Origin: Sphaeroforma arctica JP610
Lineage: Eukaryota
Reading direction: 5' to 3'
NCBI RefSeq assembly: GCF_001186125.1
Contig: NW_014039867.1
Span: forward strand, 1-36,208
Length of the DNA: 36,208 bases
In this document: positions 2,383-34,197 of the stretch, piece by piece
Layout of the letters: the number at the start of each line of letters is the position of its first letter
How positions within the stretch are numbered: the first letter of the stretch is position 1
Program-made: the position numbers and the translations under genes
Notes under the pieces: model-generated
What the model saw: only the letters and a program-made list of their open reading frames with translations
Database searches by the model: none
What the model was told of the DNA's origin: nothing

Positions 2383-2413
<31 letters not shown>

Positions 2414-2450: not shown

Positions 2451-2485
<35 letters not shown>

Positions 2486-2993: not shown

Positions 2994-3015
2994 TGTATGT
3001 ATGTATGTATGTATG

Positions 3016-3048
<33 letters not shown>

Positions 3049-3260
3049 GTTTGTGTGGGTGGGAGGGTGAGAGTTTGTTTGTGTACGTGTGCGTGTGTGT
3101 GGGTATGTGTGCACATTTTCGCACATACACACACATATATATATATATATATATAAATATGTATATGTATATATATTTATATATATTTGCGTATATATAT
3201 ATATGTGTGTGTGTGTATGTGTGTGTGTATGTGTGCACATATATATATTCGTATATATAG

Positions 3261-3306
<46 letters not shown>

Positions 3307-3849: not shown

Positions 3850-4119
3850 GGAGGCAATAAAGAGGTGGTTGATATTTTGATCAAAGCTGGAGCCGTTTTC
3901 GATATCCGCACCAATTCGGGTGTGTCGCCGTTGCACAATTCCCTGTACTGTGGCAACCATTCCGTGACCAAACTTCTGCTGGAATCTGGGGCCTCGCTAG
4001 ACAAACCTGAATTACCGTTCGACCAAATGGCACTACATTGGGCGGCTCGGAGTGGCAATATAGAGGTTGCGCAGATATTGTGTGAAAAGGCGGGCGCTGA
4101 CCCGAGCCGATTAGACAAG
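3850..4119 (+). CDS. Ankyrin-repeat protein, exon 2
   Basis: Acceptor TTCAG| at 3849. GGNKEVVDILIKAGA...SPLHNSLYCGNHSVTKLLLESGAS...ALHWAARSGNIEVAQILCEKAGADPSRLDK are canonical ankyrin repeats. Donor AAG|GTACC at 4120. Confidence 0.9.
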
Positions 4120-4375
4120 GTACCGACGATTGTTTAGTTTTAGCTCATCACATATATGGAATACATCAGATCTACGTAGTATGTCAAGCACTAACGCTAT
4201 TCGGATATAGAGGTATATATATATGTGTGTGTGTGTATATCTATATATATTTATATATCTATATATATTTGTATATATTTGTGTTTGTATATATTTATAT
4301 TTGTATATTATATATATATATATATATATTTATATTTGTATATATATATGTATATGTATATATTTATATATATGT

Positions 4376-14229: not shown

Positions 14230-15200
14230 ATCTATCGAAGTTTACAGATGATGATATTGAGCTCGATCTCGACCTCGAGGGGGAGCTGGACGACGATTTG
14301 GAAGAGACAGACACTATTCCAACACCAGAATATGGGTTTTGAGACAAGTTATGGAAACATGACATACCAGCGGACGAAGATACTACAGATACTCTTATTT
14401 GGCGCCGAGTGCTCAGAGATGTATTCCATCTGATAGACCTCATTCCAGTCAGCCGCAAGCAGGGTAGTCACTACTTATATAATCAAGCAATCAGAAACGC
14501 GATCTTTGTTGATGACCAATACAACTTCGAAAAGGGTTTAAAAGTGCTCTGGCAGAGGAGAAGAAAGCTTGAGAAAAATTTAGACAGTCTCGGCATGAAA
14601 ACCGATCTATATCTTTTCGCATCAGAGGACATATACCTGAACCTAGTAAGTTGCTCTATGAACAGGTTAAATGTGTATTGGATCTCTTTCAAGATCATAA
14701 TGATGACAACACAAGTCAGAAATTCTTTTCTATCGAGGCTCGAAAGCAGGTTAAGGCTGTATTAGATTCAATTGAGCAAGGGTATGTCTCAGACCCGCCT
14801 GGTACTACAATATATACAATATATCGAACGGACAATGACAGTCTTGATATCTATGTGTTGTCGATCACCAAGTGGCCCTGAAGGATTACATATACGTGAG
14901 AGGTACTAAACAAAGCGATATACTAACTACAAAACTCACCATGGACCGTGCGTCCATGCATTATCATGGTCAATCCATAAGCGTCAGATAAAAAAGCATC
15001 GTAATTACAATGGAACAAGGCAGTTAATAACAGTATTGTATCCTTACTACACTGCAGATCAAGCAAGACGAATGCAAGCTAATGTTGAAGCAACGAAGGC
15101 TAAGTCTGGTATTACGGACCATGAATATGTTGCACAACAAGAAGGACTGCCCACACCCTGTGTCCGTGTGCGAATACATTCGGATATCGATGTCACGCAT
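14230..15200 (+). pseudogene. Decayed DDE-like transposase fragment (DUF6729-associated, Mutator/ISL3-like motifs)
   Basis: Joined frames give RVLRDVFHLIDLIPVSRKQG...AIRNAIFVDD...ARKQVKAVLDSIEQGYVSDPPGTTIYTIYRTDNDSLDIY/CCRSPSGPEGLH...EYVAQQEG. From memory this matches the D-x2-H, SDPPG and RCxRGTNxxEGxH motifs of this family. Stops and frameshifts are present. Confidence 0.6.
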
Positions 15201-16289
15201 GAGGTATCCATTTACACAATACCCACTGAATATTGCTGTGGAGATAACTCTTAGTATAAAGCATCTGGCACTGGGATTGGCGTTAGAAACGGATTATCCA
15301 AAAGGAACATTGCCAAATGAACAACTCAATAAACAGGTAAGCTCCATATGCGATTGCAAGAAGCCAAATGTAGGCGAAGAACCTGCACAGTACTCCGGAG
15401 CAATGGGAAGATATATAGACAGCTACATGTCCAAGTACGGTATCGAACCTAATCTGGAAACACAGACGGCGGAAGAGTTTAGCAGTGTAATTAACATCGA
15501 TGTGTTGTTTATTAAAGACGAAAACGCAGTAATTCACCTTGAAGAGACCATCAAAGATTTACAAGATTCCGTCTTTTGCTCTGCCACTGTCACACGGACG
15601 TACTTCTTTTTCTAGGCGGTTTTCACACTGCATCACGTACTAAAATTGCTCTATCTCGTATGTAGTCTTGTGTTTTGAGTACATCCAGTTCCGCTTCATG
15701 ATTTCTCTAGATTGATTCCGTACTCAGCAAGCTTAGAATCGGAAAACTTCTTAATATGTGGTTGGTTGATGGGCGTTTCAATGTCGCCGAACGCTTAGAA
15801 ATCCTTCGTCTTGCTTCATTGATCTGAGTATAGCAATATCGGTTCCTTGCACCCATTTTCTTCTTAACTTTAGACACACAAAATTCTTCCTGCTTACGTA
15901 TTTATCCTATGAATAGTTTTGCGTAAGCGTTTGAGTCGAGTGTCCGTGGCTAGTACTGCAGAGGTATACGCAAAATTAAATGTTTTTCTGGTTGCTGCTG
16001 TCCTGGTACAATTTTTAAATTTACTTGCTCAATCTCTTCAATTCCCAACCATCTTGCAAAGCACTGTGTGTGCGTCCTGGCGTGCTCATGAGATGCCATT
16101 TCAGGAACTTGTGTGAAGGATGTGTTGTGTGCCATAGCGTTACAGTAATGATTACATGCTTCCATGCTTATTATAATATACCCGTCAGAGTAAAATGGAA
16201 CACTCTCCTGCAGATATCTAGGAAGTTGCTCAATTATGTTAGAGTGAAGTAGTACTGCTTGTGCTCAGGATTATTTTTGTTTTGTGTTT

Positions 16290-16470
16290 TGTTCCCCAAC
16301 TTGCAGCTAGCACATATAGCTATTGTATATTACGTATTCAGTACTAGTCAAGCCCAAAGCCGTACATCGTCCTTGCTGCATAACCATTTGACTGTAAAAT
16401 GTGCTCCCCATTGTTTGGACACCGAATCTTGAGTGTTGCATCCCACCAATCCGGAAGAAAGAATTACGCT
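16290..16470 (-). pseudogene. DUF6729-like cysteine-cluster domain remnant (copy A)
   Basis: FFLPDWWDATLKIRCPNNGEHILQSNGYAARTMYG/LTSTEYVIYNSY/ICASCK across two frameshifts. Confidence 0.55.
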
Positions 16471-16985
16471 TGTATGTCTTTTCGAGCTGGATTTGTTGTC
16501 ATAGGTAGGACAACACAAGCTATAGCACTGAACTTTGTAATCGATCCATTCTCTGGCTTTATAACTCGAATGCCTTTTAGGTTTCATAAACCCACGCACA
16601 ATACAACTCTTCAAAGCGAATCAACTGATCATCGCGCGATGTAGCTGCAGTGATGAAACATGCCTCGAAATATTCTTCTAGCTCATCGGCTTTGTCCAAG
16701 CCGTCATTGTCAATGTCAACACTATTATTAAAATATCATCACTATATCACTATTAGTGTTAGAGTGCAATGTAGTAGACTTTAAATAAAGTGCAAATGCA
16801 TGTATTTATTTCTGACCTCACCTTTGGTTTTATACTTAAGGTGTTTGTGCTAGTCTCCAGCCGCTTGGTCTGGCCAGGGTAAAAACTCATATGGTCAGTA
16901 TGAGAAACCTTATTATTTTTGCGGATCGTTCTACTGTTGCATAATCTGAGCAAGGGTAATTAGGGTATTTTTCCGGAAAAGAACC

Positions 16986-17354
16986 CACAAGCTCTCCCAA
17001 CCGTTTTCTATTGATATGAGATCGATGGGCGCTCGATCTTCGGGGAAGTGTTCGAGCTGAATTTTGCGAGCACTAGTAGCTTGTTGCAGAGCTTTATTCC
17101 TTTGCAGATAGCACAAACGAACTTGTTGTAAATAGGAAACTCTGTGCTTCCGAGACCTTTTAACGCCTGCTGCCGCATAACCATTAGATTGTAAATCGTG
17201 TCCGCACTCATTTGAACGCTGTGTTTTCAACGAAGTATATCACAAATGTGGTAGAAAAAGTACACAAGCTCTTCCAACCGGTTTCTATTGATATGAGGTC
17301 GATGGGCGCTCGATCGTCGGGGAAGTGTTCGAGCTGAATTTTGCGAGCACTAGT
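16986..17354. repeat. 92-bp direct repeat (16986-17077 and 17263-17354)
   Basis: CACAAGCT...GGGGAAGTGTTCGAGCTGAATTTTGCGAGCACTAGT is present twice and nearly identical. Confidence 0.9.
17095..17270 (-). pseudogene. DUF6729-like cysteine-cluster domain remnant (copy B)
   Basis: ACVLFLPHL*YTSLKTQRSNECGHDLQSNGYAA/ALKGLGSTEFPIYNKFVCAICK is clearly paralogous to copy A (LQSNGYAA, STExxIYN, CAxCK). Confidence 0.6.
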
Positions 17355-17415
17355 TTGCTCTACGATGACCCTCAAATATATAATTACTCGGGTTTGGGTC
17401 TGCATCGTTCGAAAT

Positions 17416-17730
17416 ATCATCAAGGTTGTCTCCATGTTTGTTTCCATTGTGTCATTGTCAACCGCCTGTGCCACTCCGATTCAATGACATCGGTTCCTTG
17501 TAAACTGTGCCACGGTACAGAACACGTAGGCTCGTAGACTCTGTTATATTAATTGTCTCGCTTGATTCAACGATCATCAAGGTCGTCTCCATGTTTTGTT
17601 TCCATTGTGTCATTGTCAACCGCCTGTGCCACTCCGATTCAATGACATCGGTTCCTTATAAACTGTGCCACGGTACAGAACACGTAGGCTCGTAGACTCT
17701 GTTATATTAATTGTCTCGCTTGATTCAACG
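17416..17730. repeat. ~157-bp tandem duplication (17416-17572, 17573-17730)
   Basis: Two nearly identical consecutive copies starting ATCATCAAGGT(T/C)GTCTCCATG. Confidence 0.93.
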
Positions 17731-19031
17731 ATCTTGTCTAATTGACTCTCACGATCGCTAGCTGCCAACTCGAGGGCCTCACATTCGAGTGTTTTTCTAT
17801 GGGCAGCAGCTGCTGCTACCCATGTTTCATAATCACACTGCATTTGCAGCCTGCAATTCACGGTGCACTTCTTGAATATTTAGGCAATTGTCGGCGGCTG
17901 TTGCTAGCTGCGTTTGTTGCGCCAGGAGATACCATGATGAATTAGACTAGAGTCATGTAAATATATATTTATATTGGTACGAGAGCGTTGAAAATTTCAA
18001 TTTATGTGTGTGTGGTTATTGAATTTTGTATTTCGTAAAAGCCTACATGAATACTCAGAACTTTCACCTTGGAAATTGTCAGTACTGTGTAGACTACTCC
18101 GGTCTCCAGCTAAAGGTCAAACCAAAGGAGGAGTCTACCATACTGTGTGACGTATACTTACATTACCGGCCCTAAGCCAATTATTATGAACAAGTGTGGG
18201 GTCAGTCCGTCTCCAATTTCTGAGGTTTGCATTTTTGTCCTTAGGGGTTCGTAACCCTGCGGAAGTTTGGTACTAAACTGGGGCACCTTTATAAGTTGAA
18301 AAAAAAACCATATAGAAGTGACACGCACCATATTTTTATCGCCATAAAGAGGGTGTTAGAACTCTCCATCGCGTCCCAATAAGAAAGAGAACGTGGGATC
18401 GTGCTTTGAAAGATCGTGTTGATAAGCTGGCATCGATGAGAATATGTTCCCGCCACTTTCGGAAGTCGGAAAGGGCTGATCTTAAAAAGGGGAGAAGGTG
18501 AACCTGAGTCTGAACCTAAACCTGAACCTGATTCAAAAGCGCATGGGCCGAAGGTTATGACAGTTGTTCTTGACCAACAAAAAAAGCAGCTCGAACCTAA
18601 AGCAGTAGATACTCAAGGAAGACAGCAGATCTCGCAATCTTCCCTAGACCAGCAGATCTTGTAATCTCCCCTAGTTATTTTACCAGCTGTCGCTAGCATG
18701 CCAGCAGTCGATATCATGGCCGTACCACGGCTATTCACAGGAGGCAACAGCCGTACTCAACAAGATATCGACCTTGCTCGTATCTTTAAAATCAGTATGT
18801 TAGGAAATCGAGTATTAAGCATGCCCGAAAGTGTTGATAATTTGAGCGACCTTGTTTGTTGCCATTTGGAATATAGTAACGATAGTAAGACCCAGAATGA
18901 TGGTTGGGCACTGACTTCCAGCGACTACGGCACCAATATGATAATCTCTCGGCCTGTATACTTTGAAGAAGGTACCAAATCATCCTTGCAGACGGTAGAC
19001 GTTGTTTGTATGAGAGGGACTTTCAACTTGA

Positions 19032-19129
19032 CATATCGGACAATTCTGCCGGGTCTGGAACTTGTAGACGCCAACACATTCATATCGGACAATTCTGCCA
19101 GGTCTGAAACTTGTGGACGCCAACGCTTT
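19032..19129. repeat. 49-bp tandem duplication
   Basis: CATATCGGACAATTCTGCC(G/A)GGTCTG... begins at 19032 and again at 19081. Confidence 0.9.
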
Positions 19130-19242
19130 CACGCAACAAGTGATAGTACACAAACGCTATAATATATATATTTTCACGTGTCGGAACTCTGAAGCGATTT
19201 CTACTAGTGTCATGAGTGGCCTCAAATGGCAGTGGCGACAAA

Positions 19243-19404
19243 TATCTACGAAACCCGCTGTATCTACGAAGCCCGCTGTATCTACGAAGCCCGCTATATC
19301 TACGAAGCCCGCTGTATCTACGAAGTCCACCATGTCTACGAAGCCCCCCGTGTCTACGAAGCGCACCTTGCCTACAAAGTGCACTATATCTACGAAGTCC
19401 ACAA
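19243..19404. repeat. 18-bp minisatellite, ~9 copies (TATCTACGAAGCCCGCTG)
   Basis: Units start at 19243, 19261, 19279, 19297, 19315 and so on, degenerating 3'-ward. Confidence 0.92.
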
Positions 19405-19599
19405 CCATATTTATGAGCAGTTTGGCAACAAGGCTATTTATGGGAGAATAAAGTATACATGTAAACATTTATGATAAATTGTCTTCTCTTGCTCTCTTCG
19501 CCGCTGCTTCATCTTCATTTGCCTCACGTTTGAGGCCTTTAGCATTGGCCTTTTCATTTGTATATGCATGTAAAACATCGAAGTGATTACTCGCGTGTA

Positions 19600-22424
19600 A
19601 ACTAGCTAGTCTGGCAGCAAATAGTTTTGGTTTGGTCAAAACTGTGTGGTTAGGGTCATGATGAATTAGAAATTGATGCCCTGTATAATTCTGTGCGAAT
19701 CTGGTTTGTGCAGCCGTCGATTATCTGATACACTGATACATACTTGGTATTATAGTCTCGCGGGGTGATGTTTAAACCTTCACTCCAGCCTCGCTGACCT
19801 GCTAAGGCAAAATAGTCGTCTACTGAAATACGCCCGTCCTGGGCTAGGAATAATAGCTCTCGGATCTTTGAGGCTGTGGCCTTTTCAGGTAAATCAATTC
19901 CTAGCTCCGTACCCAAAGCGATCAGTATTTGTCTATTACTAATTGTTTTGTAGTCTACAAATTTGTCTGATATGGCACCGAGGTTTTCGTCAAACCTTTT
20001 CATCCTCAAGATAAGGTCAGACTTGGACCCTGTGCTGTACAACACCTAATGCGATCAGCTTCTATTGCAAGCCGGTTTTGCTACAAGCAGCATATATACA
20101 TAGCAATACTTCCATGTCCTTAATAGATCCTAGTATTGTAAACATCGATTGTATTTGTTTGTGATCCGGTAATAAAGCTGGGTGTAGACTTGTTCGACCG
20201 TCTTCTCGCAAAGACGTGAGCCATATCTCTCGTAGCTCGGCAAATGTATATCGACATCCTGTTATGCCTCCAACGTACTTCTCGTGTGCTTTAAATCGTA
20301 CGATGTCATCGGTAGCCATAAAACCACCTTTACAATGTGCCCACCCTTCTGATTCATTTGTGTTTGCTTCCGTTTCATTTCCGATGCATATGGGAGCTGC
20401 ATAACGGATATAGGTCTGACATACATCTTACACTTGGGATCCAGTAACAATTGAATGCCCTTCTGCAAAGCTATCGATATCTGGTCCTTAGGCATTCTGC
20501 TGCCAACACACTTATGATTGTCAGGATCTGATTTTTCTTCGGATAGAACACCTTTGGACAAATATAGCATGGAAACAGTCCAGCATTCTCATCCTCTTCT
20601 TTATCTTCTTATTTTTTTTTTGTACATGGTTTGCTTTCTAATTGCTTAATACACTGGCATCATTGTACTCCCCTCGAGCAAGAAGTTCATCCACGCGCGA
20701 AGCTCTCCCAGGATTCAGAGTGAAGACACAGCTAGTGAATGAGCACGCATGTTTGTTGTGTATCCCTGTTCTGCTGGCTCTATACGCTTGTATCCTGATT
20801 TATATTTGTCAGTACTATACTCGACTTGTCAGCTCTATATATTTTGCAATAGTATACATTGCCGTCAGCGTAATATACAACAAGCCCCGATCCGACGCTA
20901 TCAAGACCACTGTCTTCTTCTGCATCATCTTCTATATCGAGTACATTGTCTTTATCATCATCTGCGGTAGCCACGTCCTTAATGCACGATAGTATAGTTT
21001 TTGTGTCTATGATCATTCCAGCAGTGTTATTGAACATTTGCCATGGCATCATCATGTTACTTTGGTTTAGTGCTGAGGTTTTAACTGACTTGGGAGTCGA
21101 AGCATTTTGGTCACGGATATCCTTCCCGCATCCAGGTTCGTTGTGAACGTATCCAATCAGCAATCCACGGGACTTGCATATATGGGGCAGCGCCAATGTC
21201 GTTTTGGTACTGACATAATTGCTGCTCCAATCACATTGCATGGGCTTTAGGGTCAATCTGAGATCTGATTCCCTGCCCAGACAATTAAAATCATCGTTTA
21301 TATAGGTTGTAGGAAGTCTAATCATAATTTTTCAATCCCTCAGTTGTCTCGAGTAATCTTTCAATAAAAATAAAAATATTCGAACAGTCTAAGCATTCAC
21401 TGTCATGTTCACGTAAACAACCACTCGCAAATTGCAGGCCTGATGATATACAGTGTGCACTAACTCCGCCACATTCACTGCGCTTGAGATGTTGTTTATG
21501 AACTTAAATATGCTTATCAGTGCTTTCATGTCTCTACATACTGGACAGGTTTTTAAGTTCCTCCCTTCGATCTTGAACTTCTGTATGTGCCTTTCGATAT
21601 ATACCCCTTTGATCAATATTTCCAGTTTCTCAATAAGGTCATATAAATAACGCCTTTCCACGTGGTCCACTCCATTCAGCGTCTTATCTTCTTCACCGGT
21701 AAGTTCGCGGGCTATTATCAAAAAGTATAAACGAGACATTGCCTGTTCCTCGTTCTGTCTGCAAGTTTGGAGGTATTGTCGAAACAACGTTTCTAGTGGC
21801 GGTTTTCGTATCACCTTAGGCACATCTACTAACCCATCTCTGCCCGCGATGTTCTTCCTGGCAAAAGCCACCAATTGCACATTGGCGTCGCTGAGAATGA
21901 ACCCCACAGCGGTGTGTGCGAGCTCTTCGCACCTCATGTTTTGGTGTGTTTGTCGGTTTAAGTTTTTGACTTCTGACTTTATCCTTGTCATATCATTTCT
22001 GGCACGTCTATACTGTCTTTCATTAAGGCACGCCAATTGAAATTTTGTTCGTTTTAAAGTTGAGGTTATCTTACGCTTATCTAACAGTCCTTTTTCATGT
22101 TTGTGTAGCACGTAAGCAAAACTTGGATCCTGCTTTCTATTTTTACCCTGTTTTCAATTGTCACCCGGCTCTTCACTATCACCCTGCTCCCCATCTTCAC
22201 TTCATTCCTTCGAACTATCGTAACTACTTGTACTGCTGTGACTCTCTTCATTTGTATGCTTTTTAACGCGAGATACCGGTCTCGCAAACTGAGAGAGCAC
22301 AGCTAATCCTACCCTCAACGCCTCTCCGTCATAACCCTTCAAGTAGTCATAGACTGTTGTAAACTGTTGTATGTACGCCTTTTCTGTGCGATTAAGCGCG
22401 TTGATGATGAGCCCTGATCATCAG
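19600..22424 (-). pseudogene. Sola-type (Sola3-like) DNA transposase pseudogene with a C2H2-like finger and a C-terminal SAP-like motif; interrupted at 22424 by the LTR element
   Basis: FILSDANVQLVAFARKNI...VPKVIRK...QYLQTC...AMSRLYFLII...KTLNGVD; QCDWSSNY...HNEPGCGKDIRDQNAS (cf. SDNAxxYH...EPxxGKxxCDR); LFPCYICPKVF; EGWA; GITG...QIQSMFTIL; LIALGVLYSTGSKSDLILRM (SAP-like). Many stops and frameshifts. The family name is from recalled motifs. Confidence 0.6.
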
Positions 22425-23179
22425 TATAAGATTCGGTCTATCAAGGCGATATTAACGCCTTAGAATAAATAAACGCGTAGGTTAATTCTAAGTATTGTGA
22501 AACTTTTAAAGTAAATTAACGAAATGAGACTTTTAGTAAAGTTATGTATGCCTCGTGAAAACAGCAATACTCTGAGGGATTGTGAGGCTGAGACATTGCC
22601 TATATATAATCCTCTCAGTATTGTTTCCGCCGAAGGGATTTTATTTAGTGTTTCGTTGTCGCTCTACTAGAAACTATGGTATGTTTCGTTGGGGCGAATC
22701 TGAGAGACTCGTAAAATCCTATCTTTAAAATAAAATAAAATACTCTTGATGTCCTTAGTTATTGTCTTAACCAATAACTTGCCACTTATCAAGAATTGAC
22801 GATTTAGCCTTCATCAGACTGGCACATCTGGTTGGCTGATCGGAGGATCAACTAGGTAACGTTAATAGTCCCTAGAAACCTATATTCGGTTGAGCCATCT
22901 CGCTACCGAAGTTTTCAGATATAAATAAAGTTGGAAAGTAAATATACTTCTATTAATAGAACTAGACCAACTCTTATGTTTGGTATTTTACTGGGGCCTT
23001 TTAATGGCTTTGTCCAAATATCTGATATGTAAAATAGAAAAGGTATTAATTAATAAAACCATTAAAAACCATTTAGGAAACTTAAGTTCCTTGTACTATT
23101 AAGAGTACGTTTTTAGTATGCGTACTGCTTAAGCGTACGTTTATAACATAGAGTCTAATGTGGAGGCCCGGCTATTACA
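22425..23179 (-). repeat. 3' LTR (755 bp)
   Basis: On the minus strand it starts TGTAATAGCC and ends ...CTTATA, where the canonical CA is mutated (the other LTR ends CTTACA). Matches 29668-29787 plus 34198-34837. Confidence 0.93.
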
Positions 23180-23191
23180 CAGCCCCCACCC
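23180..23191 (-). other. Polypurine tract
   Basis: Minus strand GGGTGGGGGCTG immediately precedes the TG of the 3' LTR. Confidence 0.6.
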
Positions 23192-23332: not shown

Positions 23333-24600
23333 TTACCCTGTGAGTTTTGGGCTTAGGTCCAGTAGGTCCGTGGTGGTCGACTGGACGTTTCTTGAAGGGT
23401 GAGCATTAAAGTTCGGGATAAATGCTGTAGGCGGATAAGTGTTAACTTCCGTGCCTTCAGACGATGGAAACATGCTATTTTTTTCAGCTTGTGACTTATG
23501 CAGGCGTTTACGCCATTTTCGATTAAAGGCTTTTAAATAGTCTTGATTATCGAAAGCATCTGAAGTCAGCTCAGCGATTGTACCGTCTATAAAGCGTGTA
23601 CGATAGTATGTATAGCCTCCCTTATCCGTTCTCCATATAATATCGTTAAATTCAGTACGATCAAGAGGGGCATTAGAGTCATGTCTTCTTGCGAGTATAA
23701 TCTCTGTAGTCGGAATATGACGTGTGCCTAGAACAATCGGGGTTATTTACCTCGTATGTTCCACTTTTAGTGTCTGCTACAGAGATTATGTATGGACCTA
23801 TCCATTTAGATGTTAATACAGTAGCATCGGAATTACGATGACGGATATTAACTCTGTCACCGACCTGATACTCTGCTATCTTCTTGGTAGTGTTCCAACG
23901 CTTTTGCCTTTTTAATAAGGCTATATTGCGTATTTCTCGCAAGCAAGGATATACAACGTTATACATACGTTGTACCTTCACTAACCACGGTAACTCATGG
24001 TGATCAGGTTCGTCCTTATTAAAAAATAGTGAGCGGGTGTAGTTCCTGTAACCGGATCAGCACACTCGTTCATCTGTGTTTGTACCCACTTAAGGTGTTA
24101 CGGCCAATCATCTGCATCATCCGTTAATGCAATACGCAAGAAGAACTTAAGTCTTCTATGGCGCGTTTCATTCGCGCCTTGCGTTTGCGGCTTATATGGC
24201 ACATAATACCTGGCCACCCGTGGTCAGCAAAGACTTGGCAACATAATTCTGCCACGGTCTGCGTATTCTTTTCCTTTAATGGATAGAGCAAGTTAAACCG
24301 TGACGCCACATCAAAGAAGTGGCATATGTAACGGTCGCCTGTGTGCTCGGACGTGGGCAGGTCAACCAGATCAATGATGACCCTGCGCCATGGAACATCT
24401 TCAGTCACACTCTTAAGCGGTGCGAACCCATAGCGCTTGATCTGATTGAGATCACAGTCTGTACATGACTAATATACTCTGTCAACTAAAGTTGCCAGCT
24501 TAGGGTGCGCGATCCATTTCGTTTAACATCTTTAAGTGCGTCTACTACGTTCTGGTGCTTCAGCTTATGATTTTGCGTCAGCCAAGCAAGAATGTTTTCA
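23333..24600 (-). pseudogene. Integrase: HHCC zinc finger, partly deleted DDE core, GPY/F motif and C-terminal chromodomain-like segment
   Basis: HKLKH...SCTDC; PWRRVIIDLVDLP...FFDVASRF...FADHGWP with the second-Asp region missing; YQVGDRV...KWIGPYII; EFNDIIWRTDKGGYTYYRTRF...AFDNQDYLKAFNRKW; stop at 23335-23333. Confidence 0.8.
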
Positions 24601-25039
24601 TCATTCTGCTGCTCCAGAATAAAGGTAGGGTGTTGAGAATTCACTTGCGTGGTCTCTAAGTCTGTAGTATTTCCAGACTCCTGTCTTGCTTTCGCATGAG
24701 TGTCATAAGTGTGCTCATGTACGTTAGATACACCTGACTTATTAAATAGTCGCATTATATGTGTATACGCTTCAGGATTGACTTTCATTATCCCCTTTAG
24801 AAATAAGGTTTGAAAGACCTCAGGCTTGGACTTTATGTTATTAAACAAAGTTCTAGCTAGAGACTGACGCTTCTTAACAGTAGTGTCATTAGTATATTGT
24901 ATTTCTTGTGCATAGACTTCAAGTGCTGTGTTGCCTTTGAACTGCTTAACGTTCAATTGGGTAGAGAGTGGAATCTCTGATTCTTTGACCTTGTTAAGGA
25001 AGGTCTCAGAAGGGGTCCATTTGGTTGTCCCAATGGGAC

Positions 25040-25445
25040 CTATACGACATATTATAGTATGTTTCCAGGGCGTCTTCTGGACGGCTCGGGTACCCTGATA
25101 TAGGAAAGTATCTACTTCCCTATCTAAATATATTGGCTCGCATTGTATCATGCTTATCAATTTATTGAGCCATGGATCTTTACTCCGTAATGGGCAACAC
25201 AACGTGATGGTCGCTTTATGTATATGAACATAATTTAATAGCTGGGCAATTAACTGCCATGGCGGATTAGCCCACGCATTATGTTTGGAGAGGTCTATTT
25301 GAAAGGCGTCTCCCAAAGGATGATTTAAAGTCCTGTAATTCGATAGTTGTGCATTATGATGTGCAGCAAACATATCTATGGTATGTGGCCCAAATATCGT
25401 TTGAGCCAGTTCAAACCACCTGAGATTATACTTCCAGTCAGTGGC
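25040..25445 (-). CDS. Dam-like N6-adenine DNA methyltransferase domain of DIRS type, in frame within pol
   Basis: TDWKYN..WF....FGPHTIDMFAAHHNAQL..Y.......DAF..DLS..NAWANPPWQLIAQLL.......TLCCP....PW. DMFA at 25376 is the motif-I-like SAM-binding region and NPPW at 25268-25257 is catalytic motif IV. Confidence 0.85.
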
Positions 25446-25489
25446 TAGTATCTCACGTACGGATTTATTAAAGTCCGGTACGAAGCGTG

Positions 25490-25850
25490 ATAACATATCC
25501 GGTAAATGGTTATGTATTCCTGGCAGATGTTTTATATCAAAATGAAACTTTGATATTGTATCATGCCAGCGACTCAGTAATTGTGAGTCGGGTTTCATCT
25601 CTTTCATACATTGAAGAGATTTCTGATCACACATCAGCGTAAATGCTGTTCCGTATAAGTAATCTCGGAAGTGTGTTAGAGCTGCCACTATGGCTAATAG
25701 CTCTTGTTTAACGGTTGGGTAATTCAACTGTGAAGCATTCATTGCTCGATTAAAGAATTGTATATATCTAGGTTTGTCATCTATAACCTGATATAATACT
25801 CCTCTTAAGGCTAAGTCGGAGGCGTCCGTTGCTATTTCAAACGGCACGCC
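25490..25850 (-). CDS. Ty3/Gypsy RNase H domain of pol
   Basis: FEIATDASDLALRGVLYQ...NYPTVKQELLAIVAALTHFRDYLYG..FTLMCDQKSL...RW...I.HLPGIHNHLPDMLSR. Confidence 0.92.
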
Positions 25851-26830
25851 ATCGACTGGTCCTTGTACAACAGGGGCTTGTTGGACTGCGTGCTTTGAGC
25901 GCTTTAAACGCGTCATCACACTCTTTAGTCCACAAGTCTCCTAGTTTGCCTTTATGACATCGTAAGTGTCCAAAAGGTTTAAGGTAATCAGCCAAGTGTG
26001 GTACTCCATCTGAAAAGAAGTTTACAAACCCACACATGCTGTTAACATCTCTTCCTGTAGTTGGTGTTCGCCAATCTAACAGGTGTTCTACCTTACCGGG
26101 GTCGATTTTAACACCGTCCCCAGATATACGGTAGCCTAAGAGCTGTATTTCGCTCATAATGAAGTGACATTTCTTCTCGTTAATCTTGAAGTTTTGTTCG
26201 TTGAGTCTCTTAAGGACTCGTCTGACTAATGCGGCGTGTTCGCCTGTAGTCTTAGAAAAGACGACTGTCATCTATATAGTCTTGCACGTTAGGCATGTCT
26301 GCAAACATTTCCTCCATTACTTGTTGGAAGAATGCTGGTAAAGAGTGTAACCCGAAAGGTGCACCTCTGAACCTGTATTGTTTACCTTTCCACGTAAAAC
26401 TATAGTATTTACGATGTGGTTTATATACCTGCATTTGATGATATTCGTGTGTAAGGTTTATAGTTGTAAATACTGTAGCACCTTCCATCCTTCGCAGTAG
26501 CTCGTTAATACGAGGTAAGTGAAAGCTATAAGTCGGCAAAAAAATATTTATCAGACTCATATCTAAACATACTCTGACTTTCTTAAACGATCCGTTAGAG
26601 TTATGTTGGTCTACGGCTAGCAGCGCCAAGTTTACTGGCGTTTGTTGATAGTTAATTTCTATCACTCCATCTGCTAGCTATTTCTCAACTTGTTCTTTTA
26701 CCACAGCCTCGTGTCTCCAGGATACATAGTTCCTTGAGGGACACCTTAACTGTGTAACGTCTACCTTGGTTAAGTCAAAGCTGACATACCCGTCGTTAAA
26801 ACGGAATTTTGCCCAATCTGTGATCTTTAA
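25850..26830 (-). pseudogene. Ty3/Gypsy reverse transcriptase (frameshifted)
   Basis: KVRVCLDM..IN...LPRINELL...FTTINL...YHQM...FTW.G.QY.F...PFGL...PAFFQ...YIDD / VVFSKT..EH...VLKRL...KKCHF...LLGY.IS..G...DP.K. There is a frameshift immediately after YIDD. Confidence 0.93.
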
Positions 26831-26856: not shown

Positions 26857-27260
26857 TCAGGTATTAATGTCTGGCGGGGGCTTACATGGATTCAGACAGT
26901 TATCGTCTGACTGATCCTTTAATGGAAATATGCTATTTGGTAGATCAGTTACGGTTATACCTAGAGTGAGTAAATCGCTCATTCCGACTATAATGTCGTA
27001 CTTCTGTGACATCTTAACTATCACAGCTTGGGTAGTGATACTCCTATCATCGGCCAGAGAGATTTTAACATCTGTGGCCATGGTATCACACTTAGAAGTT
27101 TTATCATCAGCTAAAATGAGGTGAGTTGTTGTGTTCTTCTTTCGATATCTTTCATTAATGCAAAGCGATCGGATATACATGAAATTTCTGAACCAGGATC
27201 AATCAATGCAAGTATTTTATTTCCATTGCATTATACAGGGATTATTACACGCTCATCTAA
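26857..27260 (-). pseudogene. Retropepsin-like aspartic protease (frameshifted)
   Basis: CNGNKILALIDPGSEISCIS (Asp at 27200-27198), then a shifted frame LADDK...YDIIVGMSDLLTLGI. Confidence 0.8.
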
Positions 27261-27305
27261 AGAGTCGTTGTATTGTCTGTGTAACGATTGTACCTGGTAG
27301 TACTT

Positions 27306-29540
27306 TCACTCCAACTTAATGTCGGGAGTTTTGTCACAAGACAGAGTGTGATAGCCATTGGTCTTCTCACACTTGTCGCACTTAATAAGAAAGTGTGTAC
27401 AGGTGGATGCATGCCTGCCATTCCAATAACCGTTAGGGGTCAATTGGTACATGTCATACCCACACTGTGCGTCGGCACATTTCTTAATATCCTTAAATGG
27501 AGGTTCCTTGTCCTTCGCCTCCGCGCGTGCCCGTTTATTGGGTTGCGTGGATAGAGTGGAGTCACGAGCACGTGTATGTTGGGGTCTCTCGTTTGAGGTC
27601 TGCCTGGATACGTACCCGTGATCGGTGTGCTCCCGCGGCTTCTTAACAGCCGCTTTTCCCTTCGATGTTACTCGGTGTGCGGGAAAAAGGGTGAATACAG
27701 TATCATAAAACTGTTCCCACGTAAGTCGGGATATATGAAACTTTGTTTCATGTCCCTTGTCTCGAGCCTCAGTAGCGTGTTTACGTCGCAACTCGGTGTA
27801 CAGGCTCTCACGGTCGTTATTCCCTATGTTTTTACAGAACACGTTCATAACCAGGAACTCGTATCATCGCTGTGCCTTGTCTTTTGTTATATCTGGACGT
27901 TTCAGGTCAGCATCTAACTTCAGAATATAACTCTGAATGGGCGTGTTCTCAACTGGTCCAGTTAAAATTGAATTCAGTCCTGTGCTACGCTTGTCTTTAC
28001 TTAATAAGGATGTAATCAATCAACACACAGCTGGCCAGTCACGGCAAGTGTCTAGCTCATGCTGGTGTCGCTGCAGGATCAAGTAACTTGTAACTGTAGG
28101 GTCAAACGTCTGCATTAAAGCGGAGATCCTTTGCTGGGGAGCGATATCATTCGTCTCCAGCATGACCGTAAACGCATTAAGCGTACGGGTTAGTGTGTCG
28201 AGGTCATGGTTGTTTTTAAACTCGACCTGCTTACTGTTGGCATCCCAGTTCGACTGAAGTCGACTGATCTTTCCCTTGTACTTCTGGTTATCCCTGTGGT
28301 CTTGTCCACGTTGGGCCAGAAGTAGCTGATCGATGCGCTTTTGCTTAATCGCAATCATATTAGCAAAATATGATACATCATCAGCATGATGCGCATCGTG
28401 GGTTTTAGGGTTTTAAAACCCGATTTGTTAAGTTCGGTCACCTCGTCAGAGTGGAAATCCTCTGCGGGCTGGTGCAACGCTGTGCGATCGAAGCGATTCA
28501 ATTCGACTTCGTTAACACGTTTACGGGGGTGTCGATTACCCCTTGTAAAATCCATGGTCGAGGCCTTTCGGTGCTCTGTCCCTCGGATAGTGGTTGGTTT
28601 TATAATCTTAGGTGATTCATGCGTCTGGATAACATACCCAGTCTTAACTGGTTTCCGACGATTGTCATCCCAATTGGGTAAAGGTGGCGGAGTATTTCTA
28701 CCTGCCTCTGGGTCTATAATACTCTCAAGGTCGGGTGACTCACGGCCGGGTGTCAGAACAGGCGAGTAATTAGCCTGAAGTTCTGGTGGTAGTACCTCGT
28801 AAGGTATAGATACGCTGAGCACATCTGGCTCATATGCCCACAGGTGTAGCGCTCGAGTCTTTACGCTCTTCGGGCGTAATTGCCTGTCGACGTTCTGACC
28901 ATTTCTGTAGGGCTTCAGTAATGCCCGGTGAAACATGCTCGCGTAAGTGCTGTGTATGTTTTCCTGATCTATACAATCGATCTACATGTTCAATAGTCAA
29001 GTCTTTCATAAGGATGGCTAACTGATTCTTAAGATCAGTGTTTTCAGTAATTAGCTTACTTATGCGCGCTGGCTTAGTAGTCTCGGTCGTAGATTCGGGT
29101 TTGCTACTTGAGCTTGCCTCCTCTTCTGGTTCCGTTATAGGTTCCTTCTGAGATTTGTCCTTGTCCTTTATAATTGGGGACTCCCTTATAATTGGGAACT
29201 TTTCTTTCTGAGTTTCGTCAGAAGAATCGGTTGGGTTGTCTTGAGACGTGTCCCTTGTCTCACTTCTTGGCTTCGTAAATACAAGCTTTGAAGTTGAGGC
29301 AATAGTTGGCCTTCGGGCTCTGTCAGTGGGAGTAGTCTTCTTAATCGGAGTGGCCACATCCTTATCTGAGGCATTGTCTTGTTGACTATTATTGTCGGAG
29401 GCAAGTTCTTCGGCTACTGTGCGGTTAAACGCATCGGCAGCGGCGGCGGTTGCTTCTGCGGCAGCACTAGCGCCTTCTCTCTCCACCTTCTTCTTTTCAG
29501 CTCTACGCTTCTTAGAAGGAGTATTGTCTTTCTTGGTCAC
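27306..29540 (-). pseudogene. Gag-like ORF1, broken into 4 or more frames, with C-terminal Cys/His knuckles
   Basis: It lies between the 5' LTR and the protease. It has a low-complexity N-terminus, a helical middle region (DWPAVC; LTWEQFY) and terminal C-x4-C-x16-H-x3-C and C-x2-C-x6-H-x3-C motifs. Confidence 0.7.
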
Positions 29541-29667
29541 AATCTTAACTTATGACAACTAGCTTGTCTCTTAAGGACTAGCTTGGACAAGATTTTGTGT
29601 GTGGTAGTTAATCTACCTTTACGCTTAAATAGTCTAAGTAATTAATACCTTTGCTAACTTTAAAATG

Positions 29668-29787
29668 TGTAAGATTCGGTCTATCAAGGCAATATTAACG
29701 CCTTAGAAAAAATAAACGCGTAGGCAAATTCTAAGTATCGTGAAACTTTTAAAGTAAATAAATAAAATGAGACTTTTAGTAAAGTTA
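29668..29787 (-). repeat. 5' LTR, 3' (U5-side) portion
   Basis: TGTAAGATTCGGTCTATCAAGGC...TTTTAGTAAAGTTA matches 22425-22544. Confidence 0.92.
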
Positions 29788-29799
29788 GGGATAATATTA

Positions 29800-30273
29800 N
29801 NNNNNNNNNNNNNNNNNNNNNNNNNNNNNNNNNNNNNNNNNNNNNNNNNNNNNNNNNNNNNNNNNNNNNNNNNNNNNNNNNNNNNNNNNNNNNNNNNNNN
29901 NNNNNNNNNNNNNNNNNNNNNNNNNNNNNNNNNNNNNNNNNNNNNNNNNNNNNNNNNNNNNNNNNNNNNNNNNNNNNNNNNNNNNNNNNNNNNNNNNNNN
30001 NNNNNNNNNNNNNNNNNNNNNNNNNNNNNNNNNNNNNNNNNNNNNNNNNNNNNNNNNNNNNNNNNNNNNNNNNNNNNNNNNNNNNNNNNNNNNNNNNNNN
30101 NNNNNNNNNNNNNNNNNNNNNNNNNNNNNNNNNNNNNNNNNNNNNNNNNNNNNNNNNNNNNNNNNNNNNNNNNNNNNNNNNNNNNNNNNNNNNNNNNNNN
30201 NNNNNNNNNNNNNNNNNNNNNNNNNNNNNNNNNNNNNNNNNNNNNNNNNNNNNNNNNNNNNNNNNNNNNNNNN
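29800..30273. other. Assembly gap hiding the LINE 3' end
   Basis: N run. Confidence 0.99.
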
Positions 30274-30510
30274 AATGGAGGATATGCGCTGGGTCAATTC
30301 AGGCCGATGTTGACAAAAAACTGACACCATCGAGTGTGCCTATTCTCTTTCTGACCTACTAAATAGCGTACCCACCTCTGTGGTTAGGATCGGGTCTTTA
30401 TCGTGTAGTGCTGTGGAATGGGTTGGTGCAGAGTACGAAATGCCAAGTAGGACCAGGTTATCCGTCACAATTCGGTCGAGGAGCGAGGTTGGGGGTGAAC
30501 CGATGCCGCA

Positions 30511-33500
30511 TCAGACCACGGATGCACTCGGTATGTGCTGGTTTGCCTGTATTGGAAGTATCATAGGCGGAACCAACAGGCGCGATGAATTGGTTTGGAC
30601 CGAAATTTGGAAGTAGTACTTCAACAGCGTGATTAGCCGGGGTATAGGAAACATTTGTTGATATGTCAGAGACGGGTGTGGGTACAGGGGTTGTTCTACA
30701 TGCTGGAGAAAAGATCCAAGGTGTTCATGGAGGGTCCAGATACCGTGGAAGTCGTGGCGCTCCTGTAGTTGCTGGAGGAGATCAGGGCCAATGAGAGGCA
30801 GTTTTGGGCCTACCAGGATGCATTGGATCAGTTGTTGGATGCAGGCAAAGTGGCTGGTGGTGAAATTTTGACCACCGGGGCAGACAGGGCAAAGACAACC
30901 GTCAGTGCGGTAGTCGAGCAGTATGAACATGTACGTATTTGTTACAATCATAGCACAGAGCCGGATTGGTGTAGGCTCGAAGCAGTGGTTGAAGCTGTCG
31001 TGTCTGGCTTTGTCCCGATCTGAGGTTGGCGGTTTGCCCATGACCAATTGGTAAAAGCATTGACGCCGGGCCATTGCCGCGATCTTCTTGTTGGACCAGC
31101 GTTTCGTTGAATTCTTTCTAATGTCGTCACATCGTCGGCGGAGGGCTACATGGTCTGGTGTACGCCCGTCCGTGATTTTGTATACAGTCTTCAAGTGGGC
31201 ATAGATACTGTACGGGAAGCGCAGTGAGGGTTTGTCGTGGCCCCAGGCGGGTTGCGTCAGAGGGGTGAGTGGGTTTGTGCTGGCCATTTAGTCGAGTTGC
31301 AGTCCCAGGCAACCTCCGAGGTAGTCCGCGAATGCTCGCGTGGGGAGCAGGCCACAAAAATGGAGTAAGTTGGTTTGATGTTTGGGAAACCTAGGGTATT
31401 TGGTGCCCGTGATGATGGCTGCTGCTCGAATGAGTGCTGAGTTATAGCGCCCAAACAAGGGGCCCAGCGCATCCTTCCATATAGGTGGAGCCCAGGCAAT
31501 AATGTTCAGGCCATATGTAGCCGTGGATAAGATGAATGTTTTGAACAGCACCAGCCTGTTGCGGGGGTGTCGCCACGGAAACCATAAGCGCGGAAGGAGG
31601 CGATGTCCAGAGACAATGCTGTACTCAGGGATTCCATATGTCTGGCGAGATTTATTCTGGTATTCCGTGGGAGAGTGGGAAACCTAGGCATTTGGAGAGT
31701 TTAGGCTTGACATGTGTGGGAGCCATCTTCAGGGGTAGGTGACATGTGTTCCAAGGGGCATCTGCAAGCGTCGGCGTGATAAGCTCACCATTTATACGGA
31801 GGGTTGGTGCCGCGTGTCGCAAGTTGGTAGATCGTACTCGGGGTTTGATGACACCCTGTTTGAGGCCAGATTTGCGTCCCCAAACATCAATGTCGTCTAA
31901 AAAGGGCTGGAGCGGAACCGGTTGGGGGGCGTGGATCCGTGTGTCGTCGACAAATAAATAAAAGCGAAGGAGCTTGGGCCGGAATTGTGCTAGTGTGACA
32001 GCCAAAGAATCCATGTAGATAATAAAGAGCTGGGGGCCAACGATTGAGCTTTGTAGGATGCCATTTGTTCTATGAAATAGATGCGAGAGCATGCCGCGGT
32101 ATGTCACTCGGGTAGGGGCCCTCTCAAATAGCGCGCGGAGGCAGTTGATCCAGTTTTCGGGCATTCCAGCGTGGTGCAAGAGTACCCACAGGCGCGGGAG
32201 AGCAACCTTGTCGCAGCCTTGGTAATTTCCAGACAGACGTTGTTCCACTCCTCTTCCAACTGTGTCTCAGATTCCATGGCGGCGAGTGCTTGGGTATGGC
32301 GGGAGTATCGCGATTTGAAGCCAGCTTGGGTTGCGTAGGTAGCAGAGCCGGGGTGGCTAGTAATCAGCTTGAGGAAACACTTTTCAAATATGCGTCTGAC
32401 TATTTGCGTTAACCTTGTTAAGGCGAAAGTCGGCGGGGGAGGTGATATCTGTATCGGGCTTTATTTTTGGGTGCGCTGTCAGGAGGGTGCAGTTCAGGGC
32501 GGTAGGGAAGGTACCCGCCTTTAGTAGCTCAGTGAATGCTTCGGCAAGGAGTCTAATCAGCGGGCTATTGGCGTCCGGGCGTCCTAGTGTCCTGTGTTCG
32601 GTGGAACGCTCCACTACGTCCTTCAGAAGGAGGATGTGGATTCCGTCAGGGCCAGGCCTCTTATTAGGATAGCGTAGTATAGCCTCCATTACATCGTCGG
32701 GGCGTATGGCGGGAGTTACATCTGGCGAGGGTTCGGTATCCGGTGGAACAACGTACGGATTCGTGGAGTTGAATAGGTCCTCAAAGTAGCCAGTGAGAGT
32801 GGCGCCTGTGTCGTCGGCACCCGGTATGCAGGGTTGGCGTGGAGATCGTCGTTGGTACGCAATATCTTGGAACATTTGGGTATTGCTTTGGGCGGTCAGA
32901 CGTGGGCGGAACGAGTGGTTTGGTAGCCGTTGTACCCAAGGTCTATTTATGTTGTAGTAGAATCCCCCAAATATTTGTGGGTTAGCGGCATAGCCTTCCA
33001 CTGGAAGTAGCAAGCCTTCCGCTGGACCATGCAAGGTGAGATACGACCGTAGTAGGTTCTGATGCACCTACATTTCGGCTTGGAATAGTCGTGCGCGAGA
33101 TTTGTTGCGTAAGTGATAAAGTCGATGGCGATATCGGTTATATCCATGAGAGAGAAGGCGTTGGTCCGGAGGCGGCGGCATTGTTGGCATTTGTTGGAGC
33201 CGATGGATGTGTTCCGTTGGAAGTACCTGGATATCAAGCCCAAAGGTGTGGTCACCATAGATGCTGTAGTCTGTCAGCTTATAGGTCTGGAGGGAGGCGG
33301 AAGTCGTGAGCCGGTGATACGCATGTTCTGTACCAGTTGAGCCGCAAGCATAGAGATAGTCCAAGTGCTACGTGTTATGTAGAGTAGTTTTGGTTGTGTT
33401 CATACGTAGTCCATGAATTGTGGATGCGTGGCCATACTTACGGGCTTTAAAGTTAAAGTCGCCCCAAACGACGTCTGGTTGGAAATTGCCAATCTCGGGA

Positions 33501-33865
33501 GGATTCATGTATCTCCTGACGCCTTCGTCGGTGAGTGATTTGAGTGGGAGGTAGAACACGGCCATACGGACGCCAAAGCATACAAAGAACACCGCGTATG
33601 GCGAGGAGTGAACCAGTTTGAATTGAGATGAATGGTGTTTGGAAAATATGCCAATACAACAGTGTGAAGGTTGTAAAATGTTGTGCCGTGTTGTGTGATG
33701 TAGAATATGATAGTCTATATGATTAAGAATTGTGGTGTTATGTCAGGTTTCAACCACACACATAACATCAACCTGACTCAAAATCGATATAACGTTCAAG
33801 CACTTATCTGTATGTGCTGCATTGTCCATGTTGAGTCCTTGTGGGTTGAAGAGCGTCATCCTCAT
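30511..33865 (-). pseudogene. LINE ORF2 (APE-RT-CCHC-like)
   Basis: ATG at 33865: MRMTLFNPQGL...DVMCVVET*H; FYLP; WGDFN; LDY; GDH (APE). RPGPDGI, DFRL, QAGF, GILQSSIVGPQLFIIYMDSL, LFVDDT (RT). CPVCPGGQNFTTSHFAC. Confidence 0.9.
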
Positions 33866-34197
33866 TGGTCCTAATATTGTTCATCCTCGGTCAATACTAC
33901 TGGGCCCTGGTCCTTGTTGATGTCAGCCATTTCTATATCGTTTTGCGGTTTGTCGTATGTTTTTCTTGATATGCCTTCTGGAGCCGGTCCGTGGTACATT
34001 GGAGAATATCTGCGTTGGTGGAATTAACAAGGGGGTCCAGTAAAGCATCCATGCTACGGGCAAGAATTTTTGGTGCTCGTTCATGTGTGCAGCAGGCTTC
34101 CCGCTTGGTGCGGAGATAGTGGATTAAGGCTGCTTTCGTAGCGTCAGGATGTTGTTGGGAGCGGGGGTCTATGGTTTTATCAAATTGCCACATCCAC

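What the first reader, a model, noticed from the sequence alone, without database searches (positions are those of the whole stretch)
25040..25445. Ty3/Gypsy LTR retrotransposon carrying an in-frame N6-adenine DNA methyltransferase between RNase H and integrase
Seen: a single 477-codon open frame (24486-25919, minus) runs from a standard Gypsy RNase H (TDASD...ELLAI...CDQKSL...PDMLSR) straight into DW...FGPHTIDMFAA..NAQL..Y...DAF...WANPPWQLI...P...W, then into the first half of the integrase HHCC finger. The element has true direct LTRs, a 4-bp TSD, a protease and a DDE integrase. Established: this Dam-like MT domain placed right after RNase H is a hallmark of DIRS1/Ngaro tyrosine-recombinase retroelements, and NPP(Y/W/F) is the catalytic motif IV of amino-methyltransferases. 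The standard Gypsy pol is PR-RT-RH-INT with no MT. Inference: this is a chimeric Gypsy lineage that captured a DIRS-type or phage-type 6mA writer. It might mark its own cDNA or integration site, for example to mimic active host chromatin or to evade defence. The catalytic motif is intact, and this stretch is unbroken while flanking domains are frameshifted, although that could be chance. I do not know of this architecture being described but cannot confirm novelty.
Basis: partly seen in the sequence, partly recalled or inferred. Interest (0 to 1): 0.92.

Follow-up and report, generated by a model that had tools for sequence, protein, structure and literature searches.

The report
Gypsy retrotransposon with adenine methyltransferase
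This is a broken copy of a multi-copy Ty3/Gypsy jumping gene with a conserved adenine-methyltransferase domain between its RNase H and integrase, a design already described in a 2026 preprint; the domain likely methylates the element's own new copies, and the element's tail is predicted to be a worn-down chromodomain.

Summary
Observation confirmed: a 477-codon frame runs RNase H, a Dam-like domain (DMFA...NPPW), a linker and the first half of the integrase zinc finger. It lies in an LTR element with a 4-bp target duplication; the 5' LTR is split by a LINE. Two intact sister polyproteins read (PR-)RT-RH-Dam-INT. The domain is 67-74% identical between them (linker 22-26%), variants shared among copies are 11 synonymous to 3 non-synonymous, and the model has an adenine-methyltransferase fold, closest to PCIF1.

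It is not new. A May 2026 preprint describes DAM-LTR elements, including an ichthyosporean lineage. On RT and MT trees this element falls in one clade with Abeoforma DAM proteins. This scan has noted the design before on other DNA (23 findings, at least 3 genomes). This copy is dead (12 breaks in pol), and its unbroken stretch fits chance.

Two additions. The C-terminus is predicted to be a chromodomain fold without its aromatic cage, although the preprint says this lineage lacks chromodomains. One intact sister has CPPW instead of NPPW. Catalytic activity and substrate remain unshown.

The parts
34838..34841 (-). Target-site duplication, upstream copy (CTGA)
34198..34837 (-). 5' LTR, first part (starts TG)
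   Evidence: 87.7% to the 3' LTR with gaps
29793..34197 (-). Decayed LINE-like element inserted in the 5' LTR (endonuclease-like and RT pieces; N gap 29800-30273); not part of the Gypsy element
   Evidence: RVT_1 E 1.6e-7 at 31655-32266; endonuclease-like reading by eye from ORFs
29668..29792 (-). 5' LTR, last part (ends ACA)
27306..29549 (-). gag-position region in several broken frames; no Gag family matched
   Evidence: assignment by position only
26875..27290 (-). Aspartic protease (DPGS), broken
   Evidence: tblastn with sister P0003, whose aa 27-112 match Asp_protease_2 at E 1e-6
25873..26830 (-). Reverse transcriptase (YIDD), one stop and frameshifts
25482..25844 (-). Ty3/Gypsy-type RNase H
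   Evidence: PF17917 E 7e-27
25032..25442 (-). Dam-like / PCIF1-like N6-adenine methyltransferase domain; DMFA at 25365-25376, NPPW at 25257-25268
24600..24986 (-). Poorly conserved linker
   Evidence: 22-26% identity between sisters
23703..24570 (-). Integrase: H2C2 finger split by a frameshift, DDE core with an internal deletion, GPY motif
23483..23656 (-). Predicted chromodomain fold lacking the aromatic-cage residues
   Evidence: no Pfam hit
23180..23191 (-). G-rich polypurine-tract-like stretch before the 3' LTR
   Evidence: sequence
22425..23179 (-). 3' LTR (TG...ATA; terminal CA mutated)
22421..22424 (-). Target-site duplication, downstream copy (CTGA)

Best explanation
This is a dead copy of a multi-copy Ty3/Gypsy LTR retrotransposon whose family encodes protease, reverse transcriptase, RNase H, a Dam-like methyltransferase domain and integrase in one polyprotein; it likely belongs to the ichthyosporean DAM-LTR lineage, and in active copies the domain likely methylates adenines on the element's own newly made DNA. 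Shown: architecture, LTRs and target duplication, intact sisters, purifying selection, and joint inheritance of RT and MT in one clade. Predicted: the SAM-dependent adenine-methyltransferase fold and the C-terminal chromodomain fold. Inferred, following the preprint's model: being part of Pol, the domain is packaged with the RNA template and acts in cis on the cDNA or RNA:DNA intermediate; the new insertion arrives marked with 6mA, which host AMT1 could maintain, so the copy looks like active chromatin. The cage-less chromodomain would at most help integrase bind chromatin or DNA, not read methyl-lysine in the HP1 way. Identity of the element: about 0.95. This mechanism: about 0.5.
For: Intact sisters P0002 and P0003 (68-71% identical over the MT region) read RT-RH-Dam-INT in one frame. 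20 of 34 selected relatives scanned have RH, Dam and rve in this order. MT identity among the three is 67-74%, against RH 69-78%, RT 62% (P0002 vs P0003) and linker 22-26%. 11 of 14 shared variants are synonymous (pN/pS 0.07, binomial p 6.5e-6). Model pLDDT is 91.8. Best structural matches are adenosine N6-methyltransferases: PCIF1 Z 10.3, rmsd 3.1, 138 aligned; ErmE Z 8.4; M.TaqI Z 7.5; T4 Dam Z 7.4 (Foldseek agrees). NPP[WF] is complete in 14 of 16 distinct clade members, with one truncated after NPP and one CPPW. On the RT tree the element is in a 13-row all-DAM clade (100/100) with two Abeoforma whisleri proteins, and all 13 lie in one MT clade (99/97). The preprint reports more 6mA and more expression on DAM-LTRs than on other LTRs in two ichthyosporeans.
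Against: No activity has been shown. Eukaryotic DAMs expressed in Dam-deficient E. coli gave no rise in 6mA (preprint). Iyer et al. 2016 judged DIRS1 MTase domains likely inactive and probably derived from PCIF1 (PMC4738411, passage). Intact P0003 has CPPW with the rest of the domain conserved. 9 of 32 distinct MT slices have a changed motif IV. The closest solved structures act on RNA. The 6mA enrichment in the preprint is a correlation and could be written by host AMT1 alone. The window's Dam score is under Pfam's cut-off. The host was not identified (no genome held), so AMT1 and host 6mA were not checked.
Confidence: 0.5

Rival explanations
1. The domain is kept as a non-catalytic binding or structural module (nucleic-acid or SAM binding, or a folded spacer between RH and IN), and the 6mA on these elements comes from host AMT1.
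For: Negative E. coli assay. CPPW in the intact sister P0003 and changed motifs in 9 of 32 slices despite a conserved fold. Iyer et al. 2016 call DIRS MTases likely inactive.
Against: NPP[WF] and DxxA are kept in 14 of 16 clade members across long branches, which a dead enzyme would not need.
Confidence: 0.27
2. The domain is an RNA methyltransferase like PCIF1/CAPAM and marks the element's own genomic RNA (for example the cap-adjacent adenosine) or the RNA strand of the hybrid.
For: PCIF1 is the best structural match and stands 1.9 Z above the next; the next rows are Erm/KsgA RNA methyltransferases. Iyer et al. place DIRS MTases in the PCIF1 clade. An RNA substrate would explain the negative DNA assay.
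Against: Sequence profiles point to phage DNA methyltransferases (PF05869, PHROG 111). Identity to PCIF1 is only 12-16%, and from recall no PF05869-type phage enzyme has a solved structure, so PCIF1 may simply be the nearest one solved. PCIF1's match spans chain residues 234-655 with a large insertion that this 140-aa domain lacks. The preprint's 6mA signal is on DNA.
Confidence: 0.2
3. The domain order is an accident of this locus: a DIRS fragment nested in a Gypsy element, a misassembly, or a neutral passenger.
For: The locus has one nested insertion (LINE in the 5' LTR) and N gaps. No single listed contig spans the whole element.
Against: Two intact single-frame sisters. Contigs of run X15 bridge RH-MT (25394-25871) and MT-linker (24613-25285). 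RT and MT clades agree. Synonymous excess. No tyrosine recombinase family among 15 ORFs scanned in and around the element.
Confidence: 0.03

Closest known systems
Ichthyosporean DAM-LTR lineage (Fernandez-Moreno et al., bioRxiv 10.64898/2026.05.21.726589, May 2026; whole main text read, supplement not seen)
   Same: Ty3/Gypsy-like organisation with a eukaryotic DAM domain and NPP motif. Nearest named relatives are Abeoforma whisleri proteins, in the same RT and MT clades.
   Different: The preprint says this lineage lacks chromodomains; here the family and its clade carry a divergent chromodomain-like module below the Pfam cut-off. The window's subfamily is far from the Abeoforma proteins (about 44% over the MT match). 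One intact sister has CPPW.
Chlorophyta DAM-chromovirus-like clade (same preprint)
   Same: DAM plus chromodomain in a Gypsy Pol. Several of my outer hits have RH-Dam-INT-Chromo above the Pfam cut-off.
   Different: Those Chromo-positive hits fall outside the window's RT clade; their hosts are unnamed, so I cannot say they are the chlorophyte clade. The window's chromo-like domain has lost the cage residues.
DIRS1/Ngaro tyrosine-recombinase retrotransposons
   Same: Dam-like MT directly after RNase H (established; PMC5890265 and PMC4738411, passages).
   Different: This element has a protease, an H2C2/DDE/GPY integrase, direct LTRs and a target duplication. The sister's RT-RH is closest to Ty3 among solved structures (E 6e-63). 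No recombinase was found.
PCIF1/CAPAM cap-adjacent adenosine methyltransferase
   Same: Best structural match of the MT model (Z 10.3, rmsd 3.1, 138 aligned).
   Different: 12-16% identity, no WW domain, no large insertion; PCIF1 is a cellular RNA enzyme.
Group II chromodomains of plant chromoviruses (PMC3350952, passages)
   Same: Integrase C-terminal chromodomain lacking the first and third aromatic cage residues.
   Different: In the window's subfamily the central Trp is also replaced (by Phe) and the TWE motif is lost; the host is likely not a plant.

Membership tests
DAM-LTR retrotransposons | Ty3/Gypsy-type RT and RNase H | tested here: met
   PF17917/PF17919; sister's best solved match is Ty3 Gag-Pol, E 6e-63; RT sits among rve-type Pol proteins. 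No DIRS rows were in the tree.
DAM-LTR retrotransposons | DAM domain (PF05869-like) with NPP triplet inside Pol | tested here: met
   E 6.8e-6, under the gathering cut-off; relatives up to E 2e-14; fold; NPPW.
DAM-LTR retrotransposons | DDE integrase, direct LTRs and target duplication rather than tyrosine recombinase | tested here: met
   the integrase is broken in this copy and intact in sisters.
DAM-LTR retrotransposons | Raised 6mA and expression of insertions; AMT1-positive host | not testable with these tools
   No methylation data and no host genome.
Ichthyosporean DAM-LTR lineage | DAM domain and RT group with Abeoforma/Pirum/Sphaeroforma elements | tested here: met
   RT clade 100/100 and MT clade 99/97 include Abeoforma whisleri proteins. 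Only Abeoforma was available by name; the preprint's sequence lists were not seen.
Ichthyosporean DAM-LTR lineage | Host is an ichthyosporean | not tested
   Inferred only from the named relatives; run organisms are coded.
Ichthyosporean DAM-LTR lineage | Lacks a chromodomain (as the preprint states) | tested here: inconclusive
   Met by the preprint's own criterion: no Pfam Chromo hit. But fold and profile tests show a divergent chromodomain, also in Abeoforma P0007, so the stated feature looks like a threshold effect.
DIRS1/Ngaro | Tyrosine recombinase; no protease or DDE integrase; inverted or split repeats | tested here: not met
   Protease, DDE integrase, direct LTRs and target duplication are present; no recombinase family in 15 ORFs.
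Chromoviruses | Chromodomain C-terminal to the integrase GPY motif | tested here: met
   Predicted fold: 42 of 43 Foldseek rows are chromo or chromoshadow proteins, none at E <= 0.001; top 11 VIA rows, best Z 6.0; profile bridge 94% then 98%.
Chromoviruses | RT groups with the reference chromovirus clades (Tf1, MAGGY, Reina, Tekay) | not tested
   No named reference RTs were in hand.
Active N6-adenine DNA methyltransferases | Methyl transfer to adenine in DNA | not testable with these tools
   Motifs and fold are present; the preprint's assay was negative.

The most novel reading that the evidence does not exclude
The retrotransposon 'Dam' is a miniature PCIF1-type enzyme that methylates the element's own RNA or RNA:DNA intermediate inside the particle, which would explain why DNA assays in E. 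coli fail. The ichthyosporean lineage is also a writer-plus-reader chromovirus whose chromodomain lost its methyl-lysine cage and was retargeted away from heterochromatin, towards 6mA-marked active chromatin.
Probability: 0.15. Interest if true: 0.75.

Novelty: already known. Interest (0 to 1): 0.3.

Why it matters
The design itself is published, so this copy adds an example. It matters in two smaller ways. It likely corrects the published description, since the ichthyosporean DAM-LTRs appear to carry a hidden chromodomain, which bears on where they insert and on how many independent captures need counting. It also supplies a natural test pair, intact NPPW (P0002) and CPPW (P0003) polyproteins about 67% identical in the domain, for the open question of whether retrotransposon Dam domains are active and on what substrate.

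Tried and rejected
No host genome is held, so copy number and solo LTRs could not be counted. A homolog search for 262-835-aa proteins found 0 of 35 candidates; the search seeded with P0003 returned only the same two sisters among 115 candidates. No DIRS outgroup was obtained: the locus search could not use my alignment, so the DIRS-versus-phage donor question rests on the preprint. No RNA holder was listed on record; this says nothing about expression. Summed contig depth was not used as copy number or to rank domains. Direct HMM and HH comparison of the window's C-terminus with Pfam-positive chromodomains was weak (HMM not significant; HH probability 2.6-3.2%, though above all 100 and all 60 shuffles), and only 1 of 5 structure models exceeded pLDDT 70. 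The ESM Atlas did not answer. No tRNA-type primer site (TGG) follows the 5' LTR by eye; a short match to the LTR that might allow self-priming was not tested. Fifteen ORFs left of the element and in the LINE gave only ankyrin hits (1 of 15), so they did not identify the host. A paper search on caulimovirus Dam returned 0 papers. The idea that the unbroken frame shows selection on this copy was rejected: P = 0.06-0.26, and its private MT substitutions are 2 synonymous and 2 non-synonymous.

Full report
Observation. Pfam finds Gypsy-type RNase H at aa 26-125 (E 7e-27) and Dam PF05869 at aa 162-225 (E 3.8e-5). The domain alone scores E 6.8e-6 and 26.3 bits, still under the 28.1 cut-off, and PHROG 111 'DNA methyltransferase' at E 3.5e-4. 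The motifs are DMFA (aa 182-185) and NPPW (aa 218-221). After a linker come two His of the integrase finger; the CxxC follows in another frame.

The element. On the minus strand the 5' LTR starts TG at 34837, is interrupted after 34198 by a 4.4-kb decayed LINE-like element with an N gap, resumes at 29792 and ends ACA at 29668. The 3' LTR is 23179-22425, preceded by a G-rich tract. CTGA flanks both ends. The LTRs are 93.0% identical over 739 columns (K2P 0.074). Pol is colinear with intact relatives from protease to C-terminus but has 12 breaks in 3873 bp, including loss of about 23 integrase codons that hold the second catalytic Asp in the sister. This copy cannot be active. An unbroken run of 1394 bp has P = 0.06 under random breaks, and the MT alone escapes with P = 0.26, so the open frame says nothing about this copy.

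The domain belongs to the family. A search with the MT region found 2 proteins among 39 candidates, P0002 (1376 aa) and P0003 (1400 aa), 71% and 68% identical. Both read RT-RH-Dam-H2C2-rve in one frame, and P0003 has the protease too. Across the three, identity is 67-74% in the MT, 69-78% in RNase H and 22-26% in the linker; RT is 62% between the sisters. Public runs hold many related contigs over all 30 bins of the element, and contigs of run X15 bridge the RH-MT and MT-linker junctions, although no listed piece spans the whole element. In the MT, 18 variants were listed. Of the 14 shared among copies, 11 are synonymous and 3 are not (pN/pS 0.07, p 6.5e-6). The 4 private to this copy split 2 and 2. 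These variants are weighted by contig depth and are not independent events, so this is a rough measure.

Fold. The model from 23 sequences has pLDDT 91.8. Foldseek's four matches at E <= 0.001 are all PCIF1/CAPAM. VIA-align gives PCIF1 Z 10.3 (rmsd 3.1, 138 aligned), ErmE 8.4, DIMT1 8.3, M.TaqI 7.5 and T4 Dam 7.4. So the fold is that of SAM-dependent adenine N6-methyltransferases, but the substrate is not settled by it. Motif IV is NPP[WFY] in 22 of 32 distinct slices, truncated in one and changed in 9. Within the window's clade it is complete in 14 of 16, truncated in one and CPPW in the intact P0003.

Relatives. A search of 1.84 billion representatives with RH+MT listed 150 hits. I scanned 34 proteins chosen mainly for MT similarity; 20 have RNase H, Dam and rve in that order. 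Three are named Abeoforma whisleri proteins (P0007, P0014, P0032); the other 17 of the 20 looked up gave no organism. On the RT tree the window sits in a clade of 13 rows, all DAM-bearing, including P0007 and P0014 (SH 100 with 53 rows; 100/100 with 35 rows after dropping 18 non-DAM rows for time). All 13 lie in one MT clade (99/97). RT and MT therefore travelled together in this clade, which fits one old capture. Other DAM-bearing rows are scattered among non-DAM RTs (at least 4 changes forced by starred branches), as repeated capture or loss would give. The sister's best solved match is Ty3 Gag-Pol (E 6e-63). No DIRS sequence was in the trees, so the donor was not tested.

Prior art. Fernandez-Moreno et al. 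[quoted passage not shown] They find more 6mA and expression on DAM-LTRs than on other LTRs, and no activity in Dam-deficient E. coli. Iyer et al. 2016 (PMC4738411, passages) place DIRS MTases in the PCIF1 clade and think them likely inactive. De Mendoza et al. 2018 (PMC5890265, passages) note Dam-like domains in DIRS and a DNMT3 in a Gypsy element. The scan's own notes hold 23 findings with these words in at least 3 genomes and none matching this sequence; I had found the preprint, before that look-up.

An addition: a hidden chromodomain. The preprint says the ichthyosporean lineage lacks chromodomains, and it used an E-value threshold of 1e-5. Pfam indeed finds none in the window or its sisters. 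But the region after the GPY motif is 46% identical between sisters and is predicted as three strands and a helix (best model pLDDT 71.7, the other four 50-52). 42 of 43 Foldseek rows are chromo or chromoshadow proteins (E 0.013-0.11, none at 0.001), as are the top 11 VIA rows (best Z 6.0, rmsd 3.5, 58 aligned, within the tool's caution range). Profiles bridge the gap: family to nine clade members 94% (score 37, shuffles at most 14), clade to Pfam-positive chromodomains 98% (score 62, shuffles at most 18), while the direct comparison is only 3%. Abeoforma P0007 scores E 1.3e-8 (search space of 16 proteins) against a profile built from those chromodomains, and P0158 hits Pfam Chromo at E 0.001. 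In the window's subfamily the first and third cage positions are lost and the central Trp is Phe, further decayed than plant group II chromodomains (PMC3350952, passages). A search for chromodomain, ichthyosporea, retrotransposon and gypsy listed 3 papers; I read only the preprint, and saw the other two as listings, so I do not claim this is absent from print.

How it likely works. Because the MT is part of Pol, it is made and packaged with the template, RT and integrase (inferred from established Ty3 biology). The likeliest role is cis methylation of the nascent cDNA or hybrid, so that new copies enter a genome where 6mA marks active genes already marked (about 0.5). A non-catalytic role (0.27) and an RNA-directed, PCIF1-like role (0.2) remain open. 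A locus artefact is excluded for practical purposes (0.03).

Verdict. Real, well supported and already described. Interest 0.3, for the chromodomain correction, the PCIF1 link and a natural NPPW/CPPW test pair.

Noticed in passing
window 29793-34197 (-): Decayed LINE-like element (endonuclease-like piece, RT with YMD/FVDD motifs, C-terminal Cys/His-rich region) inserted into the 5' LTR; no target duplication is visible and its 3' end runs into an N gap.
   Followed up: partly
window 6745-10835: About 4 kb of diverged 51-bp repeats (60-80% alike, about 30% GC), satellite-like; not checked for coding.
   Followed up: no
window 19224-19402: 18-bp tandem repeat (about 9 copies) that is open in several frames (STKPAV repeats on the + strand).
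   Followed up: no
window 12000-22400: Intron-poor region with many broken ORFs (for example 14343-15615, 19656-22153) and no Pfam match at E <= 0.05-0.1; probably other decayed mobile elements, into one of which the Gypsy element may have inserted.
   Followed up: partly
window 2018-4137 (+): Exons of a host ankyrin-repeat gene (Ank E 2e-16 at 3820-4134) among AT/GT microsatellite-rich introns.
   Followed up: partly
window 29650-29667 (-): No TGG-type tRNA primer site follows the 5' LTR; the priming mode of this family is unexplained.
   Followed up: no
P0003 aa 694-697 region (motif IV): An intact 1400-aa sister polyprotein has CPPW in place of NPPW while the rest of the domain is 68% identical.
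   Followed up: partly
window 25030-25450, runs X1, X5, X11, X14: Contigs only about 82-85% alike and shared loose ends suggest further, more distant DAM-LTR subfamilies in the same organism.
   Followed up: no
window 17416-17733: Two tandem copies of 158 bp, 98% identical; a recent duplication or an assembly artefact.
   Followed up: no
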